This document shows, piece after piece, positions 8,713 through 27,442 of a stretch of 43,199 bases of DNA. The notes beneath the pieces are model-generated. The model searched no databases and had not been told where the DNA came from. It saw only the letters and a program-made list of their open reading frames with translations. The DNA is from a virus. The stretch's first letter is position 1; each line of letters begins with the position of its first letter. The stretch lies in the IMG/VR virus record IMGVR_UViG_3300028902_000016; one strand, written 5' to 3'. A program made the translations under genes and the position numbers.

Positions 8713-9051
8713 ATGGCGATACGTGAAGTAATTCGCGCCGTTTCTGTCCCGGAATTTCCGCGCGGTGGGAAGATGCTTGCCCTGTACCAGATTGAATTCG
8801 ACCCAGACGAAGAAGGCGTCGACCATACTTTTCGGGTTGTGATACAAAGCCCAGATTTGAAAGCGGTTGGGGGCTCAACCGAATTGTATAGCTTCCGGGC
8901 CCCATACTGCGAATTCGCTGGCCCAGCAAGTCTCTTTGTCTACTGCGAAGTAGGGGTTAACTTCGACACCGCAGGGATCTACCCAACGGTATTACTGATC
9001 GATGAAGAGCCCGTTAACGTCTTCGGGTTGCTTGTTTTGCGGGCTGTGTGA
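8713..9051 (+). CDS. Plus-strand accessory gene embedded in the tail module (113 aa, unknown function)
   Basis: ORF opposite to all neighbours. ATG at 8713 (MAIREVIRAV...); the track ORF begins at GTG 8656. A TAAAAT -10-like hexamer lies at 8644-8649. Which start is used is uncertain. Confidence 0.55.
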   Translation: MAIREVIRAVSVPEFPRGGKMLALYQIEFDPDEEGVDHTFRVVIQSPDLKAVGGSTELYSFRAPYCEFAGPASLFVYCEVGVNFDTAGIYPTVLLIDEEPVNVFGLLVLRAV

Positions 9052-12124: not shown

Positions 12125-12149
12125 AGAAAACCTTTGTTATAATGCGGCT

Positions 12150-12521
12150 ATGAAGCAAGACCCGATGGACACGTCATGGGCGCCAGCTGCCGATGCTTAT
12201 CGGAGTCGAGGATTTCCAGTATGGGCAACCATTGCTGCCTCTGTCGGGATTACAATCTTTGTGCTTTGGTTGTTTTTTGGTCGCGATTGGGCTGCTGCAC
12301 GAACCTTGAGTGATGAGTTTGAGCGAAGGATAGAGGCTCAGGAACTCCGAAACAAAGCGCGTGACTCGTACTTCGAGACCGAATCAAAAATAAAGGACCC
12401 TAGGGTTGAAAAGTGGTATGGCGTTGACCGCAGGACAAACATGGGTACAGTCCTTCTTCGTCCCCCAACCGCTATCGAGCGAAGCCAAATGGAATGGACA
12501 CATGTCCCGGCGAAGCCATAG
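12150..12521 (+). CDS. Plus-strand accessory gene: single-pass membrane protein (123 aa)
   Basis: ATG at 12150 (MKQDPMDTSW...). One hydrophobic helix, FPVWATIAASVGITIFVLWLFFG. TATAAT at 12138-12143 lies only 6 nt before the ATG and there is no Shine-Dalgarno. Convergent with the Zn-ribbon gene at 12522. Confidence 0.6.
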   Translation: MKQDPMDTSWAPAADAYRSRGFPVWATIAASVGITIFVLWLFFGRDWAAARTLSDEFERRIEAQELRNKARDSYFETESKIKDPRVEKWYGVDRRTNMGTVLLRPPTAIERSQMEWTHVPAKP

Positions 12522-12737
12522 TCAGAGGCCCAGGAACTTTTGCCACCAGGATCGCTTCCTAAAGTCCGTCATGCAGTGAAGGCATGCGCCGATCCACGGA
12601 GCGTAAAGCTTTCCGCATTTTGGGCAGTTAGTTGCTAACCGCTGATCTTCCGGCGCGGCATCGGCCCTTGTCGGAAGCACGATGATCTTCTCTGGTTTGA
12701 TGACTCGAATACCATCATTATATGTGAAATGCTCCAA
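12522..12737 (-). CDS. Small zinc-ribbon protein (71 aa)
   Basis: CPKCG...CLHC motif. Lies in the late operon directly after the tape measure, with a 20-nt overlap. Confidence 0.55.
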   Translation of the reverse strand: MEHFTYNDGIRVIKPEKIIVLPTRADAAPEDQRLATNCPKCGKLYAPWIGACLHCMTDFRKRSWWQKFLGL

Positions 12738-14145
12738 GTTGGAGCGCCTGAGATTGCATCGAGTTCTCTAATTGCATGTACCGCTGAGCCGCAGGTAGCG
12801 CCCCACGGGATCGAGGGCCTCCGCCCATTTGCTCGGCTTGATCCTTCATGACGCGCCCGAGATCCTTTAGCGCCTGAGTGTTCTCCTTGATTGGGTCTCC
12901 GCCTGCTTTGTCGTAAGGGTTCTTTAGGTTGATCGGCATTGGGCCAACTAACCCAGCCATATTCGCCATGTTGACCATTGCGGACATCCATTGTGGCGAG
13001 CCAGGAGTTTTGAGCATGTCGCCAGACATGACAGCGTTAACGCCGCCCATGAACTTGCCGCCAGCCTCTCTTACGAACTGATTCCAAAAGTTTCCAAAGA
13101 TTTCTTTGTTGGCGCGGTACTCAGCTTCCTGTCTGCGCTCTTCGGGCGATCCGTAGTCTCCCATGCTTCGCTTCAACCGGTTGTAGGTACTGCTGGATAA
13201 GTCCCGATACTGAAGCTCGGAAGTCATTCCAAGGTCTCTGGCAACACGGATTGCGTCGACGTCGTTCTTGATGTTGCGAATCTCATCGATGGCTTTCAGG
13301 TAGTTCGTGGCCTTGTTGACCGTGTAGACCCCCTGATCCATGATGCCCTTGGATCGCATGTAAGCCGCGCCATAGCCTCCTCCACGCAGCCTCTCTCCGA
13401 ATTCGACCGCCTTCTCTGCCGCTTGTTGGGCAGTGAGACCGATGAAGCCTCCAAGCGCGGCGACCTGCCCGGTTTGCGCTGAATTGCCCCCTGCGGTCCA
13501 GTAGGCTCCAGAACCGGCCCTCATGCTCGATGCCGCATTCTCAACCAGTTGCCCGCCTGCAACCACGCCAGCGGCCGCTATAGCAGCGGGAATAGCAAGC
13601 TTGGTGATCATCGGGACCATCGCCCCGATGTTGGCGAACCTTTCCACTTCGGCAATGATTTTCTGAGGATCGATCAGCCCGGCAGACGCCAGCTTGTTCA
13701 CAAGCGGCATCACCTGCATCTTTCCACCGGAGAACCCGAGCCTGGAAGTCATTACCGCGTCCATCAGCTTCTCGGCCTGGGTCTTCTCGCCACCGGTCTC
13801 TAGGAGCTTCTGATCACGTGAAACATTGCGCTTGGCCCTGAGGATCGAGACGTCGAGCCCTTTAAGATCGTCCGGGGCATAGCCGTCCATCTCGGCAAGC
13901 CGTCTTTGCAGCTGTAGGTTGTCGAGCCTGGCCCATGAATCCGACCAACTCTTACCACCGCCTCCGCCAAGGATGCCGCCTCCGCCTCCTCCTGCGCGTC
14001 CACCAACGCCACGGCCGATGGAGCTAGCGTCCTGCCCTGCCCCCTTGATCTGATCCCGGATGACCTCCAGTTTCTCGGCTACCTTGTCGAAGCCAGAGAG
14101 AGCCTTCTCCAGTCCCGGCATTTCCAGTGCGATTTCGTAAGCCAT
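12718..14145 (-). CDS. Tape measure protein (475 aa)
   Basis: Lies immediately downstream of the G/GT chaperone pair. Helix-rich, Gly-run (GGRAGGGGGGILGGGGG) and Ala/Gly-rich hydrophobic segments typical of tape measure proteins. Confidence 0.8.
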   Translation of the reverse strand: MAYEIALEMPGLEKALSGFDKVAEKLEVIRDQIKGAGQDASSIGRGVGGRAGGGGGGILGGGGGKSWSDSWARLDNLQLQRRLAEMDGYAPDDLKGLDVSILRAKRNVSRDQKLLETGGEKTQAEKLMDAVMTSRLGFSGGKMQVMPLVNKLASAGLIDPQKIIAEVERFANIGAMVPMITKLAIPAAIAAAGVVAGGQLVENAASSMRAGSGAYWTAGGNSAQTGQVAALGGFIGLTAQQAAEKAVEFGERLRGGGYGAAYMRSKGIMDQGVYTVNKATNYLKAIDEIRNIKNDVDAIRVARDLGMTSELQYRDLSSSTYNRLKRSMGDYGSPEERRQEAEYRANKEIFGNFWNQFVREAGGKFMGGVNAVMSGDMLKTPGSPQWMSAMVNMANMAGLVGPMPINLKNPYDKAGGDPIKENTQALKDLGRVMKDQAEQMGGGPRSRGALPAAQRYMQLENSMQSQALQLGAFHI

Positions 14146-14147
14146 GG

Positions 14148-14854
14148 TTAGAACACGAATTCAAGTGCGGAATCTTCGGAGTCTTCGACGAGAGCGTCGT
14201 CAAACTCATCCTCTTCCATTTCCCGAAGCTCGAAAAGATCGTCCATCCAGCCTGAACCTAACGGCTCGGGCGGTGGTCCTGGGTCCTGATCGATCGCAGA
14301 GCAGAGCCTGCGAAGACATTCGGACTGATACTGCGCGTGTGAGACTTGGTGGGCGATTACGGCGACGTGTCCGATTCCGTATTGGAGTCCGAGTCGGACG
14401 GCTGCTCCATAAACGCCGTCCAGACTCCTTTTGGGTCTTCGCCACCTTGGATCAAGTAGAACGCGGCCCTGAACTGATCCCACGCTTCGGGAAGGCATGG
14501 AGCAAGGCTCAGTATCTCGATGGCCGTGTACTTCTCTTCGCCGTCTTGCGGAGACTGTGCGGCCTCCATTCGGCAAGCCAGATGGAAAGCCTTCTCGCTG
14601 AGAACGAGCGGCTCCCCATCGACTGCGCTAAGCGGGCACGGGTCTTTGACGTACCCGCGCCCCTCATCGACCCATCCGCCAGTGATGTACTTGCGGACAT
14701 GCTCTTCGGCGCTTTGCCCTGCCGCTTGTTCCTCTAGGGGATCGAGCCGGCGAAGCCACATCACCCATTCTTGCCCAGGGTTGGACTCGTCGGTGAATGC
14801 GTATCGAAGAGCGGGCCTTGACGGCCTCTTGAGAAATACAGGGTTGAGTTTCAT
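14148..14854 (-). CDS. Tail assembly chaperone frameshift product (gpGT-like; -1 shift at 14429-14435)
   Basis: Shifting -1 at C-CCA-AAA gives ...DPK|RSLDGVYGAAVRLGLQYG..., which is exactly the reading of ORF 14148..14576. That ORF ends in an acidic tail (EMEEDEFDDALVEDSEDSALEFVF) 2 nt before the tape measure ATG. Confidence 0.75.
14357..14854 (-). CDS. Tail assembly chaperone (gpG-like, 165 aa)
   Basis: Lies between the major tail protein and the tape measure. Contains the slippery heptamer near its 3' end, and an overlapping -1 frame ORF stays open to 14148. Confidence 0.8.
   Translation of the reverse strand: MKLNPVFLKRPSRPALRYAFTDESNPGQEWVMWLRRLDPLEEQAAGQSAEEHVRKYITGGWVDEGRGYVKDPCPLSAVDGEPLVLSEKAFHLACRMEAAQSPQDGEEKYTAIEILSLAPCLPEAWDQFRAAFYLIQGGEDPKGVWTAFMEQPSDSDSNTESDTSP
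14429..14435 (-). promoter_or_regulatory. -1 programmed frameshift slippery heptamer CCCAAAA (X XXY YYZ)
   Basis: Zero-frame codons are C CCA AAA. A 7-nt spacer is followed by the stem GGACGGC / GCCGTCC (plus coordinates 14396-14402 and 14415-14421). Confidence 0.7.
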
Positions 14855-14857
14855 GCG

Positions 14858-15325
14858 CTAAGCGGTGAAGGTGACGGTTGGAGTGGTTCCATCCGTGTCG
14901 AACGGCCTGAAACTAGCCTCGGCGACGTTCTTGCCAAAGCTCGACACTCCGTCTCCGAATCGGCCTCTGGTAGCCCACATCTCGTAGGACTGAGAGCCCC
15001 TTGTGAAGCTGACCTTGAACCGGTCGTAAGTAGCCATGAGCGTCGGCAGGAGAGAGACCACGGAAGGCGAAGTGATCTTCTTGCGAAGGATTTCGCCAAT
15101 CACGATCTCGTAATCCTCTAACGTGATTTCGTAGTTAGCGACCGTACCATCGACCGACTGGATCATCTCGTGCTGAGGGTCGCTGTTGAACCGAATGTAG
15201 TCCACGACTCCCGAAAGTGACGAAGTGGCCGCTGCGGTGAGGATATTATCAGCCCCTTCCGTGTAGCCGATGACGGTAACCGCCGTCAGGTGCCTGCCTT
15301 TGAGCCAGCCAGGAATGGATGCCAT
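14858..15325 (-). CDS. Major tail (tube) protein candidate (155 aa)
   Basis: Position directly upstream of the chaperone pair. Size and beta-rich composition fit. Preceded by GGAGGAG. There is no sheath gene anywhere in the window. Confidence 0.6.
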   Translation of the reverse strand: MASIPGWLKGRHLTAVTVIGYTEGADNILTAAATSSLSGVVDYIRFNSDPQHEMIQSVDGTVANYEITLEDYEIVIGEILRKKITSPSVVSLLPTLMATYDRFKVSFTRGSQSYEMWATRGRFGDGVSSFGKNVAEASFRPFDTDGTTPTVTFTA

Positions 15326-15504
15326 TAGTTATCTCCTCCGATTGGATTGTCGGTCCAATCTCGGACCGGTTCGTTGGTTTCGACCGCGCCTTCGGGAGCG
15401 GGTTCCGTGGTGTCGAGTTCGACCACCCGAGACTGACTTTGGCGAACGCCACCAAAGCCAGCAGGCGGAAGTGTTCGGGTTTCTAAGTAGCGTTTCTTCG
15501 CCAT
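15325..15504 (-). CDS. Small ORF absent from the track (59 aa)
   Basis: Hand translation: MAKKRYLETRTLPPAGFGGVRQSQSRVVELDTTEPAPEGAVETNEPVRDWTDNPIGGDN. The ATG at 15504 abuts the upstream stop (15505-15507), and the TAA overlaps the next ATG as TAATG at 15323-15327. It fills an otherwise empty 180-nt gap. Confidence 0.5.
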   Translation of the reverse strand: MAKKRYLETRTLPPAGFGGVRQSQSRVVELDTTEPAPEGAVETNEPVRDWTDNPIGGDN

Positions 15505-15975
15505 CTATTTCTCCAGTTTTGAGAGTTCGCGCTTGAGGTTCTCCATGCGGATTGGCTCCAGCGTCTTGCCGACCGCCTCATCGATTGGGCGGGCAAACAT
15601 CTTCGAGGTTCCCTTCTTCAGAAAGTCGCTCACTCGGGACTTGTTGGAGACGACCGGAACGGATTGGCCCTTCACGACTTTCGCCAGCGTCTTCCATGCG
15701 GCTTTGAAATCACCCCGCTGTGTATTGATGACCTCAGGTGGATCTTGCGGCGACCCGTGGCGAGTGGCGAACGGATGCCCTTCTCTCCTGAGTTGAGCTG
15801 ACGACTTGCGCCCAGAGCTGAAGTCCTTGGCGATCTTGACGCCAGTATCCGCGCTTCTTCGCTCTGCCGCCTCGATCAGCTTGGCCATGCGCTCGGCATC
15901 GCGCTTAATGCCACGAATGGCGGATTCAAGTGAACCTTTGGCCATCTTAGCTATCCGCGCCGACAAGTAGCCCAA
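15505..15975 (-). CDS. HK97 gp10-family tail-completion / neck protein (156 aa)
   Basis: Motif EGHPFATRHG and the overall pattern resemble the HK97 gp10 family. The start at 15975 is TTG; an alternative ATG lies at 15945. Confidence 0.6.
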   Translation of the reverse strand: MGYLSARIAKMAKGSLESAIRGIKRDAERMAKLIEAAERRSADTGVKIAKDFSSGRKSSAQLRREGHPFATRHGSPQDPPEVINTQRGDFKAAWKTLAKVVKGQSVPVVSNKSRVSDFLKKGTSKMFARPIDEAVGKTLEPIRMENLKRELSKLEK

Positions 15976-16465
15976 TGGACCAAGAGACGCATGCAGCGAT
16001 CAGTTTGACGTTCGCCTCCAGGAATGCGGCATTGGCATCGTTCATGGCGCTGCTGTCGATCTCGCACGTCTCATCGATGACTTGGAAGGTGGTAACGCCT
16101 GAGGTGACGTTCGGGTCGGCCTCATCGATGAAGTGCCCGATGTCGTAGGCCTTGCTGTGGACGTATTCCTGATTGTCTTGCCCCGTGCGGCTTCGAATCT
16201 GATCGATGTACCAAATCCTCACCGGCGCCCGTTTGGCCCTCATCGTGAGTCCGTAATCGTGATCATGGGTCAGTCTTCCAATTTCCACCACCACGTATGG
16301 AGCGGTGAGCGCCTCAGCGTCCCCGCCTTCAGATAGCGATAGCTCTTGGACGATGTTCTGCTGCAACGCCTGGAGCGACGTGAAGTAGTGGTCGGCATCG
16401 ACGCCCGCTTGCGTGAGAACAACCGCCTTGAGCTCGGCGGCGAATGCCGGATAGAAGTCTGCCAT
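15947..16465 (-). CDS. Head-tail joining / neck protein (172 aa)
   Basis: Assigned by position in the connector block between the capsid and tail genes. No motif recognised. Confidence 0.5.
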   Translation of the reverse strand: MADFYPAFAAELKAVVLTQAGVDADHYFTSLQALQQNIVQELSLSEGGDAEALTAPYVVVEIGRLTHDHDYGLTMRAKRAPVRIWYIDQIRSRTGQDNQEYVHSKAYDIGHFIDEADPNVTSGVTTFQVIDETCEIDSSAMNDANAAFLEANVKLIAACVSWSIGLLVGADS

Positions 16466-16469
16466 GAGC

Positions 16470-16862
16470 TTAGTCGGTGGTCAGTGGCGGCTTGGATGTC
16501 TTATTGATGTACACCATGCCGACGTTCGTATTTCGGGTTCTCGTTGCCTCGCGGATTCGCGGCTCGCCAAGAATCTCGTACCAGGTTCCGTTGTCGGAGT
16601 GGCCTGGAGTGATGTTGAGAATCAGGTCCTGCCCTCTCACGTCCTGGGTCGCGTCGAAGTGGATCTTGTCTTCACTGATCGACAAGTCCTTCTTTTGGAG
16701 GCCAGCCACCATCGGAGCGTCTGCATTGGTGGTCGCAAAGAGATAGCCTGGGAGCTTCTCGATATTGACCGCCCAAAGCCAGTCCCCGTTTACCGCCCTT
16801 GTCTTTCGGTAAGTCTGAAAGACGTGGACGTACAGATGCCTTTGCCTGCGATTAAGAGCCAT
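16470..16862 (-). CDS. Head-tail adaptor / head-closure protein candidate (130 aa)
   Basis: Position and size only. Confidence 0.5.
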   Translation of the reverse strand: MALNRRQRHLYVHVFQTYRKTRAVNGDWLWAVNIEKLPGYLFATTNADAPMVAGLQKKDLSISEDKIHFDATQDVRGQDLILNITPGHSDNGTWYEILGEPRIREATRTRNTNVGMVYINKTSKPPLTTD

Positions 16863-17232
16863 CGATCCAGAACTCCAACTCGATCACGAACCAACCGTCC
16901 ATCTCTTCGGCGTATTGAATGTGGCCTTCGTGAGTGGTCGTTTCGCCTTGCTTTTGGATAGCCACGCTGCATGGCCCCACGGAAATCGTATTTCCCTTGC
17001 GAGAGGGGATCACTTGCAGTTCCGTGAACACCTTTCGCCTGCCAGTTGGGAGCGTCGTATCAGCCCTCACGCTGGCATGAAGAACGGTCTCCGTTTTTGC
17101 CTCAAGCGATATCGCCGTTTTGACTAAGAACCAATCGCCTATCTCGCCGTTGAATGTCAACTGAGAGCCTTCGAAAAGCTCTTTAGTGAATGGTCGTGCC
17201 ATAAATCTCCTCACGGTGCCCGTATAGTTCAA
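16852..17232 (-). CDS. Hypothetical protein (126 aa)
   Basis: ORF in the operon frame order. Overlaps the 3' end of the TPR-GT gene by 50 nt (20 nt if the Met at 17202 is used). Confidence 0.45.
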   Translation of the reverse strand: MNYTGTVRRFMARPFTKELFEGSQLTFNGEIGDWFLVKTAISLEAKTETVLHASVRADTTLPTGRRKVFTELQVIPSRKGNTISVGPCSVAIQKQGETTTHEGHIQYAEEMDGWFVIELEFWIDGS

Positions 17233-18433
17233 ATGCCACTCGATCGAGCACCGTCGACCAGTCTCCTTGCTCTTTCTGCCGGACGATGCGGATCGATGGA
17301 TACCAGGGGCATGAATCGGTGTAATCGCGCCAACGAAAGTCGATGTACTTCGGAAGCATGAGAATCGTCGGCTTATTCAATGCTCCCGCAAGATGGGCGA
17401 CCGCGGTATCCACGGTCACAACCAGGTCCAAATTCTCGATGATCGCAGCGGTTACCGAGAAGTCGGCTAGGCAGTCTCCGAAGTCGAGCACGTCCATGCC
17501 ATGCGGCAACCGTGCGTAATTCTCAGATCCCTTCTGGAGCCCTAAGAACCGAATTCCAGCGAGTGGCGATAGCTCCTCAGGCTTGATGGACCTGAATGCG
17601 TCGTTGTCGTGCGATGCCCGTCCCTGCCATGCGATCCCGACTCGCCTGTCTTTTGGCAATGCCTCCTTGTAAGTGGAGACCAAGGCTTGATCGGCTTTCA
17701 AGTACGGTTCATTGGGAACGTCCCCGTCGCTGCGCAATCCCAGCACTCGCGGAAGGCTCATGAGGCTGATGGCACAGTCTGCTTCCACTGCCATCGAATT
17801 ATCAGTAGGTTGAGCGACTACCGGGTAACCGCTCGCCTGCATGAGCGACACAAGCGGCTCTTGCACTTCGAGCGTAAAACTCACTCCCATCTTTTGGAGC
17901 ATGGGAAGCATCTTGCTTGCCCAGATCGTGTCTCCAAATCCTTGCTCGGAGTAAACGAGAACATGCTGCCCGATGCTTGGCTTCCCGTCCCACTTCGGCA
18001 GAAGCGTCCTCACGGGTCGCATACAGTTGACGATCCCGAATTCGTAGTCCTTCCAGCCCTGTTCCCAGTTGCCGAGAGTGAGATTGGCCGACGCCCTGTT
18101 CCATCTGGCAGACGGCTTATCTGGAGCTACTGCCAGGGCCTTGTCCAAGCACTTGAGCGCCTGCTGATATTCGCCCTGCTGGATCAGAATGCCCCCCAGA
18201 ACGGTGAGGATATCTGGGTTGTGAGGCTTGAATGCCAGCCCCTTTGATAGTTCGGCCCTAGCTCCTACCATGTCTTTCGTGTGAGCGAGAGCTACTCCTA
18301 AGTTGAATCTAGCGTCTGCATGAGACGGATCGTATTGCAGGAATTCTTGAAGGGCTGGAATCGCCTCGGCGTATCGCTTGGCCTGCATGATGCCAAGGCA
18401 CGAGAGATAGAGGTCGTTCGCCGTAGGTTCCAT
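17183..18433 (-). CDS. TPR-repeat protein fused to a GT9-like (heptosyltransferase-fold) glycosyltransferase domain (416 aa)
   Basis: The N-terminal about 120 aa are TPR-like repeats (AEAIPALQEFLQYDPSHADARFNLGVALA..., YQQALKCLDKALAVAPD). The C-terminal part has SEQGFGDTIWASKMLP and VTVDTAVAHLAGALNKPTILML, signatures I associate with TPR-GT9-type glycosyltransferases. Confidence 0.7.
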   Translation of the reverse strand: MEPTANDLYLSCLGIMQAKRYAEAIPALQEFLQYDPSHADARFNLGVALAHTKDMVGARAELSKGLAFKPHNPDILTVLGGILIQQGEYQQALKCLDKALAVAPDKPSARWNRASANLTLGNWEQGWKDYEFGIVNCMRPVRTLLPKWDGKPSIGQHVLVYSEQGFGDTIWASKMLPMLQKMGVSFTLEVQEPLVSLMQASGYPVVAQPTDNSMAVEADCAISLMSLPRVLGLRSDGDVPNEPYLKADQALVSTYKEALPKDRRVGIAWQGRASHDNDAFRSIKPEELSPLAGIRFLGLQKGSENYARLPHGMDVLDFGDCLADFSVTAAIIENLDLVVTVDTAVAHLAGALNKPTILMLPKYIDFRWRDYTDSCPWYPSIRIVRQKEQGDWSTVLDRVAFELYGHREEIYGTTIH

Positions 18434-18454
18434 AGGTTTTTAACTTCAAAGTTG

Positions 18455-18481
18455 AAAAGGGTAAGACAATTGTTCTTACCC
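18455..18481 (-). terminator. Intrinsic terminator between the connector gene and the TPR-GT gene
   Basis: Minus-strand RNA is GGGTAAGA-acaattg-TCTTACCC followed by TTTTCAACTTT. The 8-bp perfect stem lies at 18459-18481. Confidence 0.6.
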
Positions 18482-18535
18482 CTGGTGGGCCTCAAGAATT
18501 GAGATTTTACCGGAGCCGGTAAATTCTCTGAGTTT

Positions 18536-18586
18536 CTACTGGCGTCAGCAAAAACCATCTAACTTGTAGCTTATTGACGCCAGTAG
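18536..18586 (-). repeat. 12-bp perfect inverted repeat (CTACTGGCGTCA / TGACGCCAGTAG) with a 27-nt spacer
   Basis: Arms at 18536-18547 and 18575-18586, immediately after the stop of gene 18593..19261. Confidence 0.6.
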
Positions 18587-18592
18587 GCTTCA

Positions 18593-19261
18593 TCAATACC
18601 TCGTCATCAGGGTGTACCGTCGCATAACCCGACGCGCCTCATTGTTCCACGTGGAACCAAACTTGGCGATCAGCTCGATGGAGTACCGCTCTTTCACGTC
18701 GTCTTCGGAGAACTCGATCATGCCTTGGCTGAGTCCCTCCTTGATCGCAGTCGACGCCAAGCTCGCCGCCAGCTTTCGGATGGCGTTCCATGCGTCCGCT
18801 GGGATCTCCGTGGCGCAGTAGCCCGGCAGACCCGAGACTTTGATGCTCCTGGGCGGGCCCCAGCGATTGACGGTGAATTCGATCGCGGTGTAAGGAACGG
18901 AATCGGCAACCGCGTTGTATGGCAAAAGTCGGTAATCGTCCCCTGCGGTGAGTTCTTCTCCGACTGCATCGTCCGGGGTAATCCCAACGGTTACGGATGC
19001 GATGGAGACGAATCCTCTGGCAAGCTCAAGCAGCTTCGCGCCGCCTCTGGTCTCATGCCTTCGGTTAGGTCCTGGGGGATCGAAGTAGAAGTCGACGTCG
19101 GCCTCGGAAGTCTGGAAGAACGGCTTGTAACCGGTCTCCTGCTCCCAGATAGCAACGGCATCGTCCGCATAGACCGACAGGTCCATTCCGCAAGCATCGA
19201 TCTCCGCCGATTTCAGCAGTTCGATGACATCGTTGCCATCCGGGTAGGCAGTGTAGTTCAT
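18593..19261 (-). CDS. Head-tail connector (gp6-like) protein candidate (222 aa)
   Basis: Position after the capsid block. The N-terminal pattern (ELLKSAEID...ADDAVAIWEQETGYKPF) resembles gp6-like connector proteins. Confidence 0.5.
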   Translation of the reverse strand: MNYTAYPDGNDVIELLKSAEIDACGMDLSVYADDAVAIWEQETGYKPFFQTSEADVDFYFDPPGPNRRHETRGGAKLLELARGFVSIASVTVGITPDDAVGEELTAGDDYRLLPYNAVADSVPYTAIEFTVNRWGPPRSIKVSGLPGYCATEIPADAWNAIRKLAASLASTAIKEGLSQGMIEFSEDDVKERYSIELIAKFGSTWNNEARRVMRRYTLMTRY

Positions 19262-19485
19262 TACTTCTTCTTGGAAGTCGCCTTAGGCTTTGTGGCCCTT
19301 GGCTTAGGTTCGGGAGCCGTTTCTGACTCCGGTGTCGGTTCGGTGATTGCCGCTGCAGGCTCCAGTGCGCTCAGCAGGACGCCGATGCGCATAAGAGCAA
19401 GCTGGGAAGCCTCCACTGCCGGAACCTCGATTGTGGAACCGGCAGGGAGTCCGTTATGCGGCTGAAGCAATTTCAGCCGTGCCAT
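19261..19485 (-). CDS. Small protein with Pro/Glu/Lys-rich tail (74 aa)
   Basis: The internal ATG at 19485 (MARLKLLQPHNG...) lies 2 nt after the stop of 19488..19949. The longer track ORF (to 19842) overlaps that gene with Arg-rich junk. Confidence 0.5.
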   Translation of the reverse strand: MARLKLLQPHNGLPAGSTIEVPAVEASQLALMRIGVLLSALEPAAAITEPTPESETAPEPKPRATKPKATSKKK

Positions 19486-19487
19486 GG

Positions 19488-19949
19488 CTAGACGAAGATT
19501 TCCTGGGCCAAGCCGCGAGTGGACATGGTTGCAGGGACCTGCTTCGCCCGGCTGAGAACTGCAATGGCGACGAAGTACGCGCCAGCAGCTCCGTCGCCAC
19601 CGGTGGCAACCAGATCGAGGTACCGCTTGCGGCCCTTGAGGTTGACCCGGAAGGCGTGGAACGTGTTGTCTCCCGTCGCGCCTGAGGCGGCAGGAAGGGC
19701 GGCCGTGTTGCCGTCGCTCATGGTTCCACCGTTGAAGGTGGCCCCGGTGATGTCGGCGTAGCTGCCGTCCGTGTCCGACTCTTGCAGCTTGAGAGCCGCC
19801 ATGGCGATGTCCGTCGCTCCAATGAGCAAGTAGATATCGCACCAGTCGTAACCCTTCGTGTCGATCGATGCCGTAGTCAACGAAGCGTTGTCTACGATCG
19901 CGCCCGGAGGGGTGATGGCGATGATCTTCTGATCTAGTGCAGTGATCAC
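19488..19949 (-). CDS. Capsid-associated protein (possible decoration/cement protein, 153 aa)
   Basis: GTG start with a GAGGAG 6 nt upstream. Lies directly after the major capsid gene. Beta-rich. The function is a guess from position. Confidence 0.5.
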   Translation of the reverse strand: MITALDQKIIAITPPGAIVDNASLTTASIDTKGYDWCDIYLLIGATDIAMAALKLQESDTDGSYADITGATFNGGTMSDGNTAALPAASGATGDNTFHAFRVNLKGRKRYLDLVATGGDGAAGAYFVAIAVLSRAKQVPATMSTRGLAQEIFV

Positions 19950-19964
19950 GTGATTCTCCTCGAA

Positions 19965-19985
19965 GGCCCGGAACCTATCCGGGCC
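19965..19985 (-). terminator. Hairpin after the major capsid gene (possible attenuator)
   Basis: GGCCCGG-ataggtt-CCGGGCC followed by TTCGAGGAG. Both 7-nt arms are the same as in terminator T3 at 28789-28816. There is no long U tract. Confidence 0.4.
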
Positions 19986-20011
19986 AAGATTTCAAGTCAG
20001 ACCCTCCGGTC

Positions 20012-21376
20012 TTACGAAGCCGCCATGATGAGGCCAACGACCGGACCGGCAGTGCCAGTCGCTCCAACGTCGTGGACGTTGATGTCGAATCGCTGGATCG
20101 CTCGAACCTGGGTGATGTCCTTGTTGAACTCGATGTGCTCGGAAGCCGCGATGCTCGTCTGCATGCGGTCCCCGAACTCAGCGGCGAGTCCCAGATCGCC
20201 AAAGACGACCGGAACCTGAGAGTTCGCGGCAGTCGTCGGCATCGACTGGGCAAGCTCGACATCGAATCCAAGGAATCGACGCGCTACCCCGTTGATGATC
20301 TCAGCGGCAGGAACGCCGCCAGCCGCCAAAGCGAGTGGCTTCATGACGCCCTCGAAGAACGCCTTGGAGCAATACCACTTGGCATTGGCTTCTGCGTACA
20401 GTGGAAGCGCCGCCGCCACCGAGTAGAAGTTGGCGATCGTCAACTCGCTGTAAGCGTTTCCTGCGCCAAGCACGAGGCCCGTACCACCGGCAGTGGTGAA
20501 GACATCGTAGAGCCGCTGGGTGACGCCGACCATGCGCCCGTAGGTGGACGTGCCGTCTCCGATGAAGCCGCACTCGTCCTCCTTCTTGGCAAAAGCGTAG
20601 GCCGCTTCCCCGGCAAACGTGTCGCCAAGGTTGATGACCCCGTCCTGGCCAAGCTCCCCGCTGTACTTCGCCAAAATGGCGACCTTCTTAGCGGTGAGGG
20701 TCACACGGTCCCACTTCATCTTGGATTCGGTGATCGAGTCCTCTTCATCCACGAAGTAGGCAGTCAGCCCTTGCGTCTGTCGCAACCGGCTGTGAGTCTC
20801 GGATCCCATTGGGGTGTACCGAGCATTCGAGCGAAAGACGCCGTACTTCTCACGAAGGAGAATGAGCGCCTGCTCGAATTCTGGGAGCACCAGGAATCCA
20901 CCCTCTTCGTTGATGCCTTCCGTGTGGCCGGCAAGAGGGATTCCGTTGTCGCGGCAGAATCGAAGGCCATCAGCCTTGCCCATTGCCGCTCGAACGAACA
21001 TGCCCATGCGGTAGCCGAGCTTCTTGGCATCTTCGGAGGCCATGCCGACCGACATCAGATGCCGAGCCGTATGGCGGGAGTTGGCGATTGCTTTGAAGGA
21101 TTCGTCCTTGTCGACGATTGCGCTCGATGCGATGGATTGCATCTTGCCCATGCCGTTCAGGAACGTATCCGCCTCTGCGATTGCCTTGGACAGGTTCTGC
21201 TCGTTTGCGATCTGCTGCTGAATAGCCGCGATTTCGCCTGGAATGGCCTCGGCTCGCTCCACGTCTCGGGAATCCTTGGACTCCTTCGCCTGGATCGACT
21301 TGGCCTCATTGATGAGGGACTGCATCTCATCGTGCAGTCGCTTTACAGTTGGGTTCATTTTTCCCTCGTCTTTCAA
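20012..21376 (-). CDS. Major capsid protein, HK97-like, with N-terminal coiled-coil (delta/scaffold-like) region (454 aa)
   Basis: The EGGFLVLPEFEQ motif and overall pattern are typical of HK97-family capsid proteins. Follows the protease gene. The N-terminal about 100 aa are charged and helical. Confidence 0.85.
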   Translation of the reverse strand: MKDEGKMNPTVKRLHDEMQSLINEAKSIQAKESKDSRDVERAEAIPGEIAAIQQQIANEQNLSKAIAEADTFLNGMGKMQSIASSAIVDKDESFKAIANSRHTARHLMSVGMASEDAKKLGYRMGMFVRAAMGKADGLRFCRDNGIPLAGHTEGINEEGGFLVLPEFEQALILLREKYGVFRSNARYTPMGSETHSRLRQTQGLTAYFVDEEDSITESKMKWDRVTLTAKKVAILAKYSGELGQDGVINLGDTFAGEAAYAFAKKEDECGFIGDGTSTYGRMVGVTQRLYDVFTTAGGTGLVLGAGNAYSELTIANFYSVAAALPLYAEANAKWYCSKAFFEGVMKPLALAAGGVPAAEIINGVARRFLGFDVELAQSMPTTAANSQVPVVFGDLGLAAEFGDRMQTSIAASEHIEFNKDITQVRAIQRFDINVHDVGATGTAGPVVGLIMAAS

Positions 21377-22527
21377 TTGGTTGCCATGGACAGCTCGGCA
21401 AGCTCGATGGACTCGGATAACCGAGCCATGAGATCGTCGACCTGTCGGGTTTCGGAACTAAGAGCCGCGCACTCGCTTACAACTTGGGTAAGCCGTTCGC
21501 TCAGGCCCTGCGCCTGCTGCAACCGCTCAGGGCTGAAGCAGCGGCCTTGCGATTCACGAAGGTCTTTCACCTCGGCAAGTCGCTCGGCGATCCCTTCCAC
21601 GGCGATAAGCGCCGAATCGAGGGCTTGCTCCAAAGTCGAACCGATAAGCGGCTCCGTCTCTGTAGCGAAATCGGATTTGATGGCGCAGGGCCTCTTGCCG
21701 CCCCTTGCCAAACTGATGATCAGATCGTCGAAGCTCGATAGCCCATCGATCAGGCCAAGGTTCATAGCCTCTTGCCCGACGTGGACGCGCCCGTCTGCGA
21801 CCGCTTCGACTGCCGATCGCTTCATACGCCGGCCGGATGCGACTGCGGCAAGAAAATGCGAGTTCAGATCGTTCACCGTGCGCTGATACTCGGCGAGCTG
21901 CTCGTCGGTGATCTTCGCGCCTTCCACGCCCGCGCCCTTGTACTTGCCGGTGCTGATCACATGGACGTTGATGCCAGCGTTCTCGTACCGCCTGGATTGA
22001 TCGTCCAGCACCATGTAGGTTCCGATCGATCCGACGATTGCCGTCGCGTTGGCAAAGATCTTCGTGCATTGGCTCGCCACCCAGTAAGCGGCGGAGCAGC
22101 ACGAGTCCTCGACGAACGCATAGCATGGCTTGGACTTTGTGGCGGCAAGAACGTCGGCGGCAAGATCGCCAGTACCCGCTACCGAGCCGCCTGGCGAGTC
22201 GATCGCAAGCACGATGGCCTTGACGTCCTCATCGCTGACCGCCTGGCGAATCGCCCTTCTCGTCATCACGGTGGAGCATCCGCCGCTGAACGACGTCGGT
22301 TGCTTGGTCATTGGCCCACTGATGGGAATCACCGCGACGCCGTTTCGGACTTCGTAGGGATCGGCCTCCGAGTACCCTTGGCCTCTGGCAGCCTGGAACT
22401 CAGCACGATGCGCCGTCGCGTCGGTGCTCTGGAGAATCCTCCAGATTTGACGCGCTGCCGCCTCCTCGATCGCCCAATGAGGGCAATGGTGGAGGACATC
22501 AATTGTCAGATTGTTCGTTGGTGTCAT
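21373..22527 (-). CDS. Prohead protease, S49/ClpP-like, with C-terminal helical extension (384 aa)
   Basis: VLAIDSPGGSVAG...CCSAAYWVASQC...VGSIGTY resembles SppA/S49 peptidases. Lies between the portal and capsid genes. Confidence 0.8.
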   Translation of the reverse strand: MTPTNNLTIDVLHHCPHWAIEEAAARQIWRILQSTDATAHRAEFQAARGQGYSEADPYEVRNGVAVIPISGPMTKQPTSFSGGCSTVMTRRAIRQAVSDEDVKAIVLAIDSPGGSVAGTGDLAADVLAATKSKPCYAFVEDSCCSAAYWVASQCTKIFANATAIVGSIGTYMVLDDQSRRYENAGINVHVISTGKYKGAGVEGAKITDEQLAEYQRTVNDLNSHFLAAVASGRRMKRSAVEAVADGRVHVGQEAMNLGLIDGLSSFDDLIISLARGGKRPCAIKSDFATETEPLIGSTLEQALDSALIAVEGIAERLAEVKDLRESQGRCFSPERLQQAQGLSERLTQVVSECAALSSETRQVDDLMARLSESIELAELSMATN

Positions 22528-23800
22528 TTCCTTGGGTGCTCTTGCCGTTCGTCTCGGCTTGGTTCGACTGCTCGCCTTTACGAAGATCGTCGCCGCCTTC
22601 GATAGGCTCCTCGCCTTCCTTCTGTCGGATTTCGTTCGGTGTCATCCATGGACCGCCACATGCGATCGCGTACCTTTTGGCCAGTTCGGTTTTGTCGTCT
22701 TGAAGGGCTTCGATAGCCTCGATTCGGAAGACAACCTCTTCACCAGGCATGCCTAGCTCTGGGATGAGATCACGAGTGAGTTGCGCCGCCTTCTTGCGCA
22801 TGTAAGGCTTCACGAAGTCCCGAGCCGCGGCAGTGGCTGCAGAGTTCGCGCTCGCCCGATTGTTGGTGTTCTCGAGACCTGTGCCGAGATTGAGCACCAG
22901 TGGCGGTATTCGAAGCACGGCGCATATGCGCTCCTCGCTTACGTTGCGGATACCCTCCAGATTCATGTCTGCCGGTGACGAACTGATCGAGTCCACCTTG
23001 ATCGGCAGTGGCATGATCAGCGGCCGCCCTCGATTGTCGCCAGTGATCTTCTCCGAGAATGCCCGGTTGATCTGTTCGACTTGATCGGGACCAAAAATGA
23101 TCTCGTTACCGTCGCCATCCTTCAGCGCCGGGCTGATCAGGTGAGGAGTGACGCCGGTATTGGCAAGAACGGTGAGAACGAAGTTCGCCGCTTGCTTGTC
23201 TGTGACTACCTCTTGGATCGCCGCTGCGATCGGGCCAAGCGACTCCTGAGGCTTCAGAGGGTTGATCGGCCCAAAGCGTTGCTGAAGCATCTCGCTCGGA
23301 TCGACCTGCATGTAGCCGCCTGAGACGCTGAGCCGGTAATAGTCGATGAAATTGCCCGAGTTCGGAGACCAAAATGGAGCAACCGAGAAGTGAGGCAGGT
23401 ATTCAAGCCCTATCAGCTTGCCCGCTCCCGATCGGTGCTTGTACGTGTAGGACGACCCAGGGCCAGCCAGTTCGCTGATGATCCAGCCAGACATGAGCGT
23501 CGTGCCGTCGTACCACGGGTTAGGGTTTTTCAGTAACTCGGTGATCGGGTGATCCGGTATCTCCTCAAATGTGCCGTCGCCTTTCGGCCTTCGCACGTAG
23601 ATGTCCACTTCGGACATCGCCGCACAGGCGTACATGATCGCCGCATAAACCACCGAGTTGTCGTAGCGAAGACCTGCCTCGCGGTTCCAATCTCGGCCAC
23701 CGCTCAGGTTCTGGGTTCCACGCCAGGAACTGCTCAGCGTGCCCCCGTAGCCGCGAGAGACCGACTTGAAGCCACGACGGGCGAGTTGTTGAATCCTCAT
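22499..23800 (-). CDS. Portal protein (HK97-family type, 433 aa)
   Basis: Lies downstream of the large terminase. Size and sequence pattern (LLKNPNPW..., acidic C-terminus) are typical of portal proteins. Confidence 0.8.
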   Translation of the reverse strand: MRIQQLARRGFKSVSRGYGGTLSSSWRGTQNLSGGRDWNREAGLRYDNSVVYAAIMYACAAMSEVDIYVRRPKGDGTFEEIPDHPITELLKNPNPWYDGTTLMSGWIISELAGPGSSYTYKHRSGAGKLIGLEYLPHFSVAPFWSPNSGNFIDYYRLSVSGGYMQVDPSEMLQQRFGPINPLKPQESLGPIAAAIQEVVTDKQAANFVLTVLANTGVTPHLISPALKDGDGNEIIFGPDQVEQINRAFSEKITGDNRGRPLIMPLPIKVDSISSSPADMNLEGIRNVSEERICAVLRIPPLVLNLGTGLENTNNRASANSAATAAARDFVKPYMRKKAAQLTRDLIPELGMPGEEVVFRIEAIEALQDDKTELAKRYAIACGGPWMTPNEIRQKEGEEPIEGGDDLRKGEQSNQAETNGKSTQGNDTNEQSDN

Positions 23801-23928
23801 TTAGAATCCTCTGAGAGCCAGCCGCGAACGATGCAGAACGCCACCCATCCGACCAGGCCAAGCAGGAAAGCCGCGAAGAGCGCCAAGGCGATCATCATCA
23901 CGTAGCCGAATAAATCGAGGTGGCTCAT
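23797..23928 (-). CDS. 43-aa hydrophobic peptide between TerL and portal (absent from the track)
   Basis: Hand translation: MSHLDLFGYVMMIALALFAAFLLGLVGWVAFCIVRGWLSEDSK. TAATG overlap with the TerL stop (23926-23930) and ATGA overlap with the portal start (23797-23800). Confidence 0.5.
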   Translation of the reverse strand: MSHLDLFGYVMMIALALFAAFLLGLVGWVAFCIVRGWLSEDSK

Positions 23929-25499: not shown

Positions 25500-25788
25500 T
25501 GGTTGTCTCGCGCCATCCTGCTTGCGCCTTCAGCCAGAAGATCGCTGCTGGAACGCTTGGCTCTGCTTTTGTTGCCTGCTTGAATAGCGACTCTGCGACC
25601 TTGGCATTGGCTTTGATCTTCCCTGTGTCGAGTTCCGTTCGGTAATGCTTACGGAGCGTCTTGGCAGTGATTCCGATCAATAGAGCGATGTCTTCTGCCG
25701 TCGCGCCATAGGCTGTCATTGCATCGACGGTCGCTCTTGTCTTTGCATCAGGCTGGTGTTCTGGTCGCGCCATTAGCTGCCTCGTCAA
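25378..25788 (-). CDS. Terminase small subunit candidate (HTH protein, 136 aa)
   Basis: Lies immediately upstream of TerL. HTH (EDIALLIGITAKTLRKHY) and an AAIFWLKAQAGWRE motif seen in small terminase-like proteins. The 122-nt overlap with TerL is unusually long. Confidence 0.55.
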   Translation of the reverse strand: MTRQLMARPEHQPDAKTRATVDAMTAYGATAEDIALLIGITAKTLRKHYRTELDTGKIKANAKVAESLFKQATKAEPSVPAAIFWLKAQAGWRETTNVQHSGKIEGSASEEERAARVVGILDAARERRSRDNSSNS

Positions 25789-27441: not shown

Positions 27442-27442
27442 G

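What the first reader, a model, noticed from the sequence alone, without database searches (positions are those of the whole stretch)
17183..18592. TPR + GT9-like glycosyltransferase inserted in the head-tail connector module behind its own terminator
A 416-aa protein with N-terminal TPR repeats and a GT9-like glycosyltransferase domain (SEQGFGDTIW, VDTAVAHLAGALNKPTILML) sits between the gp6-like connector gene and the head-tail adaptor genes. Normally only virion proteins are encoded at this position.

It is separated from the upstream gene by 159 nt, the only sizeable gap in the head-to-tail block. That gap contains a 12-bp perfect inverted repeat (18536-47/18575-86) and a good intrinsic terminator (18459-81 plus a U tract). 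There is no Shine-Dalgarno in front of its ATG, and its 3' end overlaps the next gene.

TPR-GT fusions of this type use the TPR domain to pick protein substrates. The flagellin glycosyltransferase FlmG is an example of this architecture. The fibre proteins here are very Ser/Thr-rich. Virion protein glycosylation by a phage-encoded enzyme is a plausible and little-described function. The alternative is a lysogenic-conversion enzyme that modifies a host surface structure or receptor.
Basis: partly seen in the sequence, partly recalled or inferred. Interest (0 to 1): 0.65.

Follow-up and report, generated by a model that had tools for sequence, protein, structure and literature searches.

The report
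Phage TPR-glycosyltransferase at the head–tail junction
A temperate phage carries an intact sugar-transferring enzyme with a protein-binding arm among its particle-building genes; relatives of this enzyme sit beside capsid genes in many unrelated uncultured phages, so many environmental phages may sugar-coat their own particles, though this is untested.

Summary
The ORF is real: 17183-18433 (-), 416 aa. It has four TPR repeats (residues 5-138) and a compact GT-B domain whose best solved-structure matches are all GT9 enzymes (WaaC, WaaF, TibC). It keeps every residue that is invariant in its family.

The 159-nt gap, the 12-bp inverted repeat and the 3' overlap are confirmed. The 'terminator' is only moderate (U4), and the missing Shine-Dalgarno is not distinctive.

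'Inserted behind its own terminator' is not supported. The gap is a mosaic junction. The head genes up to g222 match phages that lack the enzyme. One of these has no gap at all. The other has a canonical terminator at the same spot.

The enzyme and the downstream connector/tail genes match a different phage group. In those phages the homologue lies between the head genes and the downstream connector/tail genes.

At least 587 IMG/VR stretches encode relatives, mostly with short TPR arms. In 17 of 48 clusters a major capsid gene lies within four genes, spread over five capsid types in all. Neighbours of cellular homologues showed no capsid family among the top hits.

Best reading, at about 0.45 confidence: an accessory, late-expressed cytoplasmic protein glycosyltransferase that modifies virion proteins. 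The acceptor and the sugar donor are unknown. Modification of a host protein during lysogeny remains a live rival.

The parts
17183..18433 (-). TPR-GT gene, 416 aa plus stop
   Evidence: ORF list. The identical gene is called on 13 public contigs. AF2 model has pLDDT 92 and pTM 0.91.
18020..18421 (-). TPR arm, residues 5-138: eight helices, about four repeats
   Evidence: TPR_16, TPR_19 and TPR_11 hits with E 1e-17 to 1e-20. Helices H5-17 through H123-138 in the model. The whole-protein fold search is topped by TPR+GT-B enzymes SPY and OGT.
17219..17992 (-). GT9-like GT-B catalytic domain, residues ~148-405
   Evidence: The C-terminal-only model (pLDDT 87) has GT9 enzymes as its top 29 PDB hits: WaaC 2h1h (E 3e-8, TM 0.57), WaaF 1psw, 3tov, TibC 4rap/4rb4.
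17930..17947 (-). EQGFGD motif (residues 163-168) after the first beta-strand; candidate catalytic-base Asp168
   Evidence: G167 and D168 are invariant in 50 homologues. The motif sits at the beta1/alpha1 junction in the model. It has the same pattern and place as WaaC VLIVKTSSMGD13. The equivalence is inferred, because no HMM alignment was obtained.
17384..17413 (-). VDTAVAHLAG motif (residues 341-350), nucleotide-sugar binding
   Evidence: Aligns to WaaC V260-D261-T-G-L-S-H266-L in phmmer, hmmsearch and hhalign. D342 and H347 are invariant in the family.
18434..18592 (-). 159-nt structured non-coding gap; junction between the head module and the GT/connector/tail module
   Evidence: Folds at -56.9 kcal/mol, z = -4.7. 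No Rfam match. Module homologies switch here.
18536..18586 (-). Hairpin 1: 12-bp perfect stem with a 27-nt loop
   Evidence: -24.7 kcal/mol, z = -4.5. The 12-mer is not enriched elsewhere in the window.
18501..18528 (-). Hairpin 2: 13-bp arms, 92% complementary
   Evidence: -13.4 kcal/mol, z = -5.9.
18447..18481 (-). Hairpin 3 plus a short U tract: moderate terminator-like element, 14 nt upstream of the ATG
   Evidence: z = -2.1. Not called by the consensus scan. A canonical terminator sits at the same junction in the GT-less relative L012.
18593..19261 (-). g222, last gene of the head module (putative head-tail adaptor)
   Evidence: No Pfam or PHROG hit. It is 51% identical to the L234 gene that is followed directly by the next gene, with no GT.
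16852..17202 (-). g116, next gene; its start overlaps the GT 3' end by 20 nt
   Evidence: GAGG upstream of its ATG, inside the GT gene.
19488..21376 (-). HK97-type major capsid gene (20012-21376) and its conserved small partner g153 (19488-19949, phrog_5707); candidate acceptors
   Evidence: PF05065 E 3e-33. phrog_5707. The same phrog lies next to the GT in L070.

Best explanation
The gene encodes a soluble, cytoplasmic, two-lobed protein glycosyltransferase. A short TPR arm (four repeats) binds a protein acceptor. A compact GT9-like GT-B domain transfers a sugar from a host-made nucleotide sugar.

The gene is the first cistron after a structured, partly terminating junction that ends the head gene block. 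It is translationally linked to the connector and tail genes. It would therefore be made late, in modest amounts, together with virion proteins.

Its most likely job is to glycosylate one or more virion structural proteins before or during assembly. It is an accessory function that changes the particle surface rather than being needed to build it.

Shown: the fold, the conserved motifs, the operon layout, presence or absence among relatives, and the repeated capsid-gene synteny of phage homologues. Inferred: enzymatic activity, that the acceptor is a protein, that it is a virion protein, late expression, and partial termination. Unknown: the acceptor and the donor sugar.
For: Fold and motifs:
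- TPR and PF01075 hits. AF2 model with pLDDT 92.
- The isolated catalytic domain matches only GT9 enzymes at the top of the PDB search.
- The whole protein matches the TPR+GT-B protein glycosyltransferases SPY and OGT in architecture.
- D342 aligns to WaaC D261.
- All 15 family-invariant residues are retained.

Localisation:
- There is no signal peptide or membrane segment in the model.

Operon layout:
- The 3' overlap with g116, and no sigma-70-like promoter on the coding strand.

Synteny in phages:
- At least 587 IMG/VR stretches encode relatives.
- The most frequent Pfam family among +/-2 neighbours is the Gp23 major capsid protein. GP7 capsid and FkbM-type methyltransferases follow.
- 17 of 48 clusters have a recognised capsid gene within 4 genes, on top of the window and MW202512. 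That gives five capsid types.
- Neighbours of cellular homologues showed no capsid family among the top 25 Pfam families.

Conservation:
- The GT is as conserved (36-49% identity) as the co-inherited tail proteins (23-35%) in L070, L074, L077 and L066.
- The nearest GT-domain relatives are phage-borne (L066 49%, L003 48%) rather than cellular (at most 44%).

Precedents:
- The FlmG TPR arm binds its protein acceptor (PMC7591256).
- Phage-encoded virion glycosylation exists in mycobacteriophages (Freeman 2023, as cited in PMC12619734).
Against: - There is no experimental evidence, and no acceptor has been identified.
- The head-module relatives L234 and L012 build the same type of head without the gene. 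It is therefore dispensable and not tied to this capsid.
- In this phage group the gene travels with the connector/tail module, and the head type differs between carriers (HK97 PF05065 versus GP7).
- In the two cultured cyanophages it lies by tail-fibre genes, not by the capsid gene.
- 29 of 48 viral clusters showed no recognised capsid gene nearby, although only six capsid probes were used (two of them, the HK97-type and podovirus capsids, recovered nothing).
- Many capsid-adjacent clusters belong to one T4-like lineage, so they are not independent events.
- Being placed in a late operon also fits any function that simply needs late expression.
- The phage is temperate.
- The window holds no sugar-nucleotide synthesis genes, so the donor is unconstrained.
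Confidence: 0.45

Rival explanations
1. Lysogenic conversion or superinfection exclusion. The enzyme glycosylates a host protein in the cytoplasm before export, such as flagellin, pilin or an adhesin as FlmG and TibC do. Alternatively it modifies the LPS inner core. Either change would alter a receptor used by competing phages.
For: - The phage is temperate: S24 repressor-like gene, tyrosine integrase, RecT and YqaJ.
- The closest characterised enzymes all act on host surface components: WaaC and WaaF on LPS, TibC on an autotransporter, FlmG on flagellin (PMC7591256).
- The gene is accessory, being absent in L234 and L012.
- It is preceded by a non-coding region.
Against: - No sigma-70-like promoter was found on the coding strand in 12000-28000.
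- The only room for a promoter lies upstream of a terminator-like hairpin that ends 14 nt before the ATG.
- The 3' end is coupled to connector genes.
- The gene lies far from the integrase/repressor region, where conversion genes usually sit.
- Homologues occur in T4-like contigs next to gp23. On general knowledge, T4-like phages are lytic.
- GC content does not differ from the flanks.
Confidence: 0.22
2. Host takeover or anti-defence. The enzyme glycosylates a cytoplasmic host protein, for example an immune sensor or a translation factor, in the way bacterial effector glycosyltransferases and EarP-type enzymes modify single targets.
For: - The architecture is that of a soluble TPR-guided protein glycosyltransferase.
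- EarP appears among the distant GT-B fold matches.
- The gene is accessory and mobile between phage modules.
Against: - Takeover and anti-defence genes are normally early genes. This one is embedded in the late structural operon and is syntenic with capsid genes in several lineages.
- No PADLOC or anti-defence evidence was sought or found.
Confidence: 0.1
3. Non-protein acceptor. The enzyme adds sugar to a lipid-linked glycan, LPS core, polysaccharide or phage DNA, and the TPR arm only docks it to a partner.
For: - The GT9 fold family is dominated by LPS heptosyltransferases.
- Some phage loci add FkbM methyltransferases, a galT-like gene, a radical SAM gene and a sialyltransferase-like gene, as in glycan-building clusters.
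- The Rhizobium phage homologue is annotated as a polysaccharide biosynthesis protein.
Against: - The window has no hypermodified-base synthesis genes and no other glycan genes.
- There is no membrane anchor.
- The TPR fusion is the hallmark of protein-directed GT-B enzymes (PMC7591256).
Confidence: 0.1
4. Catalytically dead remnant, kept as a TPR scaffold or assembly chaperone.
For: - TPR proteins often act as chaperones.
- The sequence match to GT9 covers only about 35-50 residues.
Against: - All family-invariant residues are retained, including D168, D342, H347 and R281.
- The catalytic domain is more conserved than the TPR arm across phages.
Confidence: 0.05

Closest known systems
FlmG flagellin O-glycosyltransferase of Caulobacter crescentus (PMC7591256; bioRxiv 10.1101/2022.03.25.485807)
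   Same: Soluble cytoplasmic enzyme with an N-terminal TPR arm and a small C-terminal GT-B domain (288 aa in FlmG, 282 aa here). In FlmG the TPR arm binds the acceptor protein and the GT-B domain sets donor specificity.
   Different: FlmG is 596 aa with a TPR arm of about 310 aa, against 416 aa and about 135 aa here. FlmG is linked to flagellins and pseudaminic or legionaminic acid synthesis genes and is reported as confined to Caulobacterales. The window has no such genes.
GT9 heptosyltransferases WaaC/WaaF and the protein heptosyltransferase TibC (BAHT family)
   Same: These are the best structural matches of the catalytic domain. The D-T-x-x-x-H-L donor-site motif is shared, with D342 matching WaaC D261. 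A G-D motif follows strand 1. TibC shows that this fold can glycosylate Ser residues of proteins.
   Different: Sequence similarity is limited to about 35-50 residues, and TM-scores are only 0.53-0.59. WaaC, WaaF and TibC lack a TPR arm. Their acceptors are LPS or an adjacent autotransporter. ADP-heptose use is not established here.
GT41 O-GlcNAc/O-fucose transferases (OGT, SPINDLY, XcOGT)
   Same: They are the top whole-protein fold matches, with the same TPR superhelix followed by a GT-B catalytic unit.
   Different: There is no PF13844 hit. The isolated catalytic domain matches GT9, not GT41. TM-scores are low (0.3-0.4), and the catalytic domain here is far smaller.
Mycobacteriophage virion glycosylation (Che8, Corndog, Myrna; Freeman et al. 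2023, cited in PMC12619734 and PMC12801897)
   Same: Phage-encoded glycosyltransferases modify the capsid and tail-tube subunits. The function is accessory.
   Different: The hosts are actinobacteria, and from my own knowledge the enzymes are of other GT families without TPR arms. The acceptors there are Ser/Thr-rich C-terminal tails, and no such tail exists on the capsid protein here.
Morons of lambdoid phages (own knowledge: Juhala/Hendrix definition)
   Same: An accessory gene at a module junction in the late region, present in some relatives and absent in others.
   Different: It has no flanking promoter-terminator pair of its own, its 3' end overlaps the next gene, and its GC content is not deviant.

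Membership tests
GT9 (CAZy family 9 / Pfam PF01075) | GT-B fold: two Rossmann-like lobes | tested here: met
   AF2 models. The top 29 PDB fold hits are GT9 enzymes, with E 3e-8 to 4e-5 and TM 0.53-0.59.
GT9 (CAZy family 9 / Pfam PF01075) | Pfam PF01075 score above the gathering threshold | tested here: met
   27.9 bits against a cut-off of 22, but only residues 328-359 align. 17 of 18 homologues also hit.
GT9 (CAZy family 9 / Pfam PF01075) | Donor-site motif equivalent to WaaC D261-T-G-x-x-H266 | tested here: met
   VDTAVAHL aligns to VDTGLSHL. D342 and H347 are invariant.
GT9 (CAZy family 9 / Pfam PF01075) | Catalytic Asp after strand 1 (WaaC D13) | tested here: inconclusive
   An EQGFGD168 motif sits at the beta1/alpha1 junction and is invariant. 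The pattern is like WaaC SSMGD13, but hhalign did not align this region.
GT9 (CAZy family 9 / Pfam PF01075) | Uses ADP-heptose and transfers heptose | not testable with these tools
   Needs biochemistry.
FlmG class of flagellin O-glycosyltransferases | N-terminal TPR arm plus C-terminal GT-B domain, soluble | tested here: met
   PMC7591256.
FlmG class of flagellin O-glycosyltransferases | Sequence homology to C. crescentus FlmG (CCNA_01524) | not tested
No NCBIfam FlmG model hit.
FlmG class of flagellin O-glycosyltransferases | Genetic link to flagellin and Pse/Leg synthesis genes | tested here: not met
   No such genes in the window. Flagellin was not among the top neighbour families of viral or cellular homologues.
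GT41 (OGT/SPINDLY) | GT41 catalytic domain (PF13844) | tested here: not met
   No PF13844 hit. The catalytic domain alone matches GT9, not GT41. Only the overall architecture resembles GT41.
BAHT (TibC/Aah protein heptosyltransferases) | GT9-like fold | tested here: met
   TibC 4rap/4rb4: E 5e-7, TM 0.54-0.59.
BAHT (TibC/Aah protein heptosyltransferases) | Encoded next to its autotransporter substrate; iron-binding dodecamer | tested here: not met
   No autotransporter in the window. Oligomer and iron site were not tested.
Moron (accessory gene in a phage late region) | Present or absent between otherwise related genomes | tested here: met
   Absent after the g222 homologue in L234 (51% identity) and L012 (38% identity).
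Moron (accessory gene in a phage late region) | Own promoter upstream and terminator downstream | tested here: not met
   No sigma-70-like site on the coding strand. The hairpin is upstream, and the 3' end overlaps g116. Host promoter types are unknown.
Moron (accessory gene in a phage late region) | Deviant base composition | tested here: not met
   GC is 0.55 in 17001-19000, against 0.56-0.60 in the flanks.
Phage virion glycosylation systems (mycobacteriophage type) | Phage GT encoded with structural genes | tested here: met
Phage virion glycosylation systems (mycobacteriophage type) | Ser/Thr-rich C-terminal acceptor tail on the capsid or tail-tube subunit | tested here: inconclusive
   The capsid C-terminus has no such tail. 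g155 ends in GTTPTVTFTA, and g74 has a Pro/Thr/Glu/Lys-rich tail. These features are not conserved in homologues.
Phage virion glycosylation systems (mycobacteriophage type) | Glycans detected on virion proteins | not testable with these tools
   Needs mass spectrometry or glycostaining.

The most novel reading that the evidence does not exclude
The window's gene belongs to a large, uncharacterised, phage-borne branch with short TPR arms, within a very large TPR-GT9-like family. That family has about 29,000 clusters (50% identity) at E <= 1e-10.

The novel reading is that this branch is a widespread virion-glycosylation system of uncultured tailed phages, including T4-like aquatic phages. It would be repeatedly recruited next to major capsid genes of at least five capsid types, sometimes together with sugar methyltransferases. 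It would use an enzyme class not previously linked to phage particles.
Probability: 0.35. Interest if true: 0.75.

Novelty: new variant of a known kind. Interest (0 to 1): 0.58.

Why it matters
Glycosylated phage particles are so far documented mainly in mycobacteriophages. There the glycans change how virions are recognised.

If this TPR-GT9-like family does the same job, virion glycosylation would be common in environmental phages of Gram-negative and other hosts. That would bear on adsorption, particle stability, immune and defence-system recognition, and phage engineering.

It would also give a first function to a very large family of 'TPR repeat proteins' in bacteria. The family offers compact, modular protein glycosyltransferases: a short TPR selector joined to a catalytic unit of about 280 aa.

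The system is directly testable. There is one gene, two obvious catalytic residues to mutate, and a short list of candidate acceptors.

Tried and rejected
- A PDB sequence search with the whole protein returned only TPR proteins. The catalytic domain alone, or its profile, gave only marginal WaaC hits at E 0.2-0.9. hhalign against E. coli WaaC and WaaF aligned only 36-43 columns. Family placement therefore rests on fold.
- A close-relative scan of IMG/VR with the GT found nothing.
- 58 capsid-related IMG/VR loci were too distant. None carries the GT, and only L012 shares g222.
- A metagenome scan with g222 gave one useless fragment.
- An Rfam search of the gap gave no match.
- The 12-mer of the inverted repeat is not enriched elsewhere in the genome: 5 matches with up to 2 mismatches, and 9 of 100 shuffles do as well. 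A repeated operator was therefore rejected.
- Host identification through cellular homologues failed. The best hits are 37-43% identical and spread over many phyla.
- The contexts of cellular homologues (P0064, P0107) were uninformative.
- No cultured T4-like phage carries the gp23-adjacent form.
- The Freeman 2023 paper could not be read.
- FlmG homology could not be tested.
- DNA glycosylation was considered and rejected, because there are no base-hypermodification genes and the gene lies in the structural block.
- My simple ORF picker mis-called genes in GC-rich loci, for example L001. Neighbour counts are therefore approximate.
Full report
**What is there**

The window is a complete genome of about 43.2 kb from a temperate tailed phage.

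- It is a circular permutation of a JGI contig of the same length. The GT protein occurs unchanged on 13 public contigs.
- The minus-strand structural block, in order:
  - large terminase, 23928-25499
  - portal, 22499-23800
  - S49 protease, 21373-22527
  - HK97-type capsid, 20012-21376
  - g153 (phrog_5707), 19488-19949
  - g74
  - g222, 18593-19261
  - the TPR-GT gene, 17183-18433
  - g116, g130, g172, g146, g59, g155 and g165
  - larger tail and fibre genes
- An S24 repressor-like gene (35461-36279), a tyrosine integrase (41364-42398), RecT and a YqaJ-type exonuclease show that the phage is temperate.

**Checking the observation**

- The ORF, its length and both quoted motifs are correct.
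- TPR Pfam families cover residues ~16-131. PF01075 (GT9) passes its threshold at 27.9 against 22 bits, but only over residues 328-359.
- The 159-nt gap, the perfect 12-bp inverted repeat and the 20-nt overlap with g116 are all present.
- The gap actually holds three hairpins and folds far better than shuffles, z = -4.7.
- The one called a terminator is the weakest. It has an 8-10 bp stem, is followed by only four U, and is not called by the consensus scan.
- Lack of a Shine-Dalgarno is not distinctive, because 13 of 24 genes in the block lack one.
- The fibre proteins are moderately Ser/Thr-rich, 19-24%.

**What the protein is**

- An AlphaFold model built on 50 homologues is confident (pLDDT 92, pTM 0.91). 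It shows eight TPR helices (residues 5-138) followed by two Rossmann-like lobes.
- The whole model matches the TPR+GT-B protein glycosyltransferases SPINDLY and OGT in architecture.
- The catalytic domain modelled alone (pLDDT 87) has GT9 enzymes as its top 29 solved-structure matches:
  - WaaC, E 3e-8, TM 0.57
  - WaaF
  - a Veillonella GT9
  - the protein heptosyltransferase TibC
- At sequence level only the donor-site segment aligns. VDTAVAHL matches WaaC VDTGLSHL, so D342 corresponds to WaaC D261.
- The EQGFGD168 motif sits at the strand-1/helix-1 junction, as does WaaC SSMGD13. This equivalence is inferred, not aligned.
- All 15 residues that are invariant across 50 homologues are retained, so the enzyme is probably active.
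- There is no signal peptide or membrane segment, so it is probably cytoplasmic.

**The family**

- The catalytic domain alone finds 36,744 representative clusters at E <= 1e-3, and 29,398 at E <= 1e-10. Some are giant proteins with up to six copies of the domain.
- Cellular members are spread over Nitrospirota, Planctomycetota, Proteobacteria, Acidobacteriota, Cyanobacteria and other phyla. All are at most 43% identical to the window protein.
- Where named, they are mostly annotated just as 'TPR repeat protein'.
- Cellular neighbours are mostly further TPR proteins, with a few sugar epimerases, GT2 enzymes and methyltransferases. No capsid family was among the top 25 Pfam families for 107 neighbours.

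**Phage copies and their context**

- At least 587 IMG/VR stretches encode relatives.
- The 80 best, plus four loci fetched earlier (including the window's own contig), fall into 48 clusters at 70% identity. Their TPR arms are short, with a median N-terminal extension of 168 aa against 320-343 aa in cellular proteins.
- Among 143 neighbours within two genes:
  - the most frequent Pfam family is the T4-type capsid protein Gp23 (6)
  - the GP7 capsid family is present (3)
  - FkbM (4) and other methyltransferases are also present
- With local capsid HMM probes, 17 of 48 clusters have a capsid gene within four genes, and 14 within three. The window (four genes away) and podovirus MW202512 (three genes away, with an FkbM methyltransferase and a galT-like gene alongside) add to this.
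- Five capsid types are involved:
  - HK97 PF05065
  - GP7 PF20911
  - T4 Gp23
  - phrog_371
  - the podovirus type
- In the T4-like lineage the gene is divergent from gp23 and flanked by a radical SAM gene and a weak sialyltransferase-like gene.
- In two cultured cyanophages it lies beside tail-fibre genes.
- The best matches among predicted viral structures are uncharacterised phage proteins with the same two-domain fold, TM 0.77-0.78.
- Caveats on these counts:
  - many capsid-adjacent clusters share ancestry
  - my ORF picker is crude
  - only six capsid probes were used, two of which (the HK97-type and podovirus capsids) recovered nothing
  - the counts are therefore indicative, not a statistical test

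**Is it an insertion behind its own terminator?**

Comparison with relatives splits the region in two.

- The head module up to g222 is related to L234 and, more distantly, to L012. Identities to L234:
  - portal 56%
  - g153 68%
  - g222 51%
  - terminase 44%
  - capsid 41%
- In L234 the g222 homologue is followed one base later by the next gene. There is no GT and no gap, and the downstream genes are not homologous to the window's.
- In L012 the g222 homologue is followed by a canonical GC-rich hairpin plus T6 (19218-19255) and then the next gene. Again there is no GT.
- By contrast, g130, g146, g155, g165 and g902 are homologous at 23-35% to genes of L070, L074, L077 and L066.
- Those four phages, and L003, carry the GT homologue between the head genes and the downstream connector/tail genes, at 36-49% identity.
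- In L070 the order is GP7-type capsid, phrog_5707 protein, GT, head-tail adaptor.

So the structured 159-nt gap marks a mosaic junction. A terminator at this junction occurs without the GT, so it is not the gene's own. The GT is an accessory gene that travels at the head of a connector/tail module and has diverged about as much as that module. It fails the promoter/terminator and composition criteria of a classical moron.

**How it most likely works**

- Late transcription reads from the head genes into the junction.
- The hairpins stabilise or partly terminate the abundant head transcript. This is inferred.
- Read-through then expresses the GT and the coupled connector/tail genes at a lower level.
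- The TPR arm docks a protein acceptor, as shown for FlmG (PMC7591256).
- The GT9-like domain transfers a host-supplied sugar.
- The repeated placement beside capsid and other structural genes, and the occasional companion sugar-modifying genes, make virion proteins the most likely acceptors.
- Phage-encoded virion glycosylation has a precedent in mycobacteriophages (Freeman 2023, cited in PMC12619734).
- Which protein is modified is unknown. Candidates:
  - the capsid protein
  - g153
  - the Pro/Thr-rich g74
  - the Thr-rich C-terminus of g155
  - the fibres
- I put this reading at about 0.45.

**Rivals**

- Because the phage is temperate, and the characterised relatives act on host surface molecules, modification of a host protein or LPS during lysogeny remains plausible (about 0.22). 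The operon layout and the presence of homologues in T4-like phages argue against it.
- Host takeover or anti-defence, non-protein acceptors and a dead enzyme are less likely.

**Novelty and verdict**

- The enzyme class (a TPR-guided GT-B protein glycosyltransferase) is known, and so is phage virion glycosylation.
- New here is a large, uncharacterised, phage-borne GT9-like branch that is syntenic with capsid genes.
- I found no paper describing it.
- I rate it a new variant of a known kind, with interest 0.58.

Noticed in passing
window 14146-14576 (-): A 142-aa ORF (14148..14576) overlaps the 3' part of g165 in another frame and runs up to the start of g475. This looks like the programmed-frameshift arm of a tail assembly chaperone (G/GT type), which would explain the 211-nt 'gap' at 14146-14356.
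   Followed up: no
window 8713-9051 (+): An opposite-strand ORF of 112 aa (weak PF22091 DUF6941) sits in the 830-nt space between the large tail genes g902 and g1074. It is a better candidate for an autonomous moron than the GT. There is also a 593-nt gap at 12125-12717.
   Followed up: no
window 19261-19485 (-): g74 is a small protein whose C-terminal half is Pro/Thr/Glu/Lys-rich (TEPTPESETAPEPKPRATKPKATSKKK). The sequence is mucin-like and could be a glycosylation acceptor or a DNA- or capsid-binding tail.
   Followed up: partly
window 19488-19949 (-); L070 7144-7524: g153 (phrog_5707) follows the capsid gene in most of the 58 capsid-related IMG/VR loci. It also follows a different capsid type (GP7) in L070. 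It is a conserved small head-associated protein of unknown function.
   Followed up: partly
window 25748-27043 (-): A fusion of a ParB N-terminal domain with an N6/N4 DNA methyltransferase lies just upstream of the terminase region.
   Followed up: no
window 35461-36279 (+), 36590-39018 (+), 41364-42398 (+): Lysogeny and recombination module: S24 peptidase repressor-like gene, YqaJ exonuclease fusion, RecT and a tyrosine integrase. The phage is temperate.
   Followed up: partly
L121 1785-8260 and related loci (L091, L104, L116, L125, L130, L135, L141): In a T4-like lineage the short TPR-GT (~382 aa) is transcribed divergently, one to four genes from gp23. It is flanked by conserved ~195-aa and ~260-aa ORFs. 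In L121 the ~195-aa ORF weakly resembles a sialyltransferase, and a radical SAM gene lies between the GT and gp23. This may be a small glycan cassette beside the capsid gene.
   Followed up: partly
L012 11773-18386: The GT-less relative carries about 6.5 kb of other cargo between its decoration-like gene and its adaptor gene. One of these genes encodes a Laminin_G_3 (ConA-like lectin) domain protein. This head-to-connector interval seems to be a hot spot for accessory genes.
   Followed up: partly
proteins P0127-P0275: Many cellular proteins of 1000-3100 aa contain two to six tandem copies of this GT9-like domain, interleaved with TPR stretches. This is an unusual multi-catalytic architecture.
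   Followed up: no
window 2502-3620 (-): The distal tail or fibre protein g372 has a DUF4082 domain. g544 and g372 are the most Ser/Thr-rich proteins in the genome (23-24%).
   Followed up: no
whole window vs JGI contig Ga0310364_1523322: The public contig has the same length (43199) but a different start point. This is consistent with a circular or terminally redundant complete genome.
   Followed up: no
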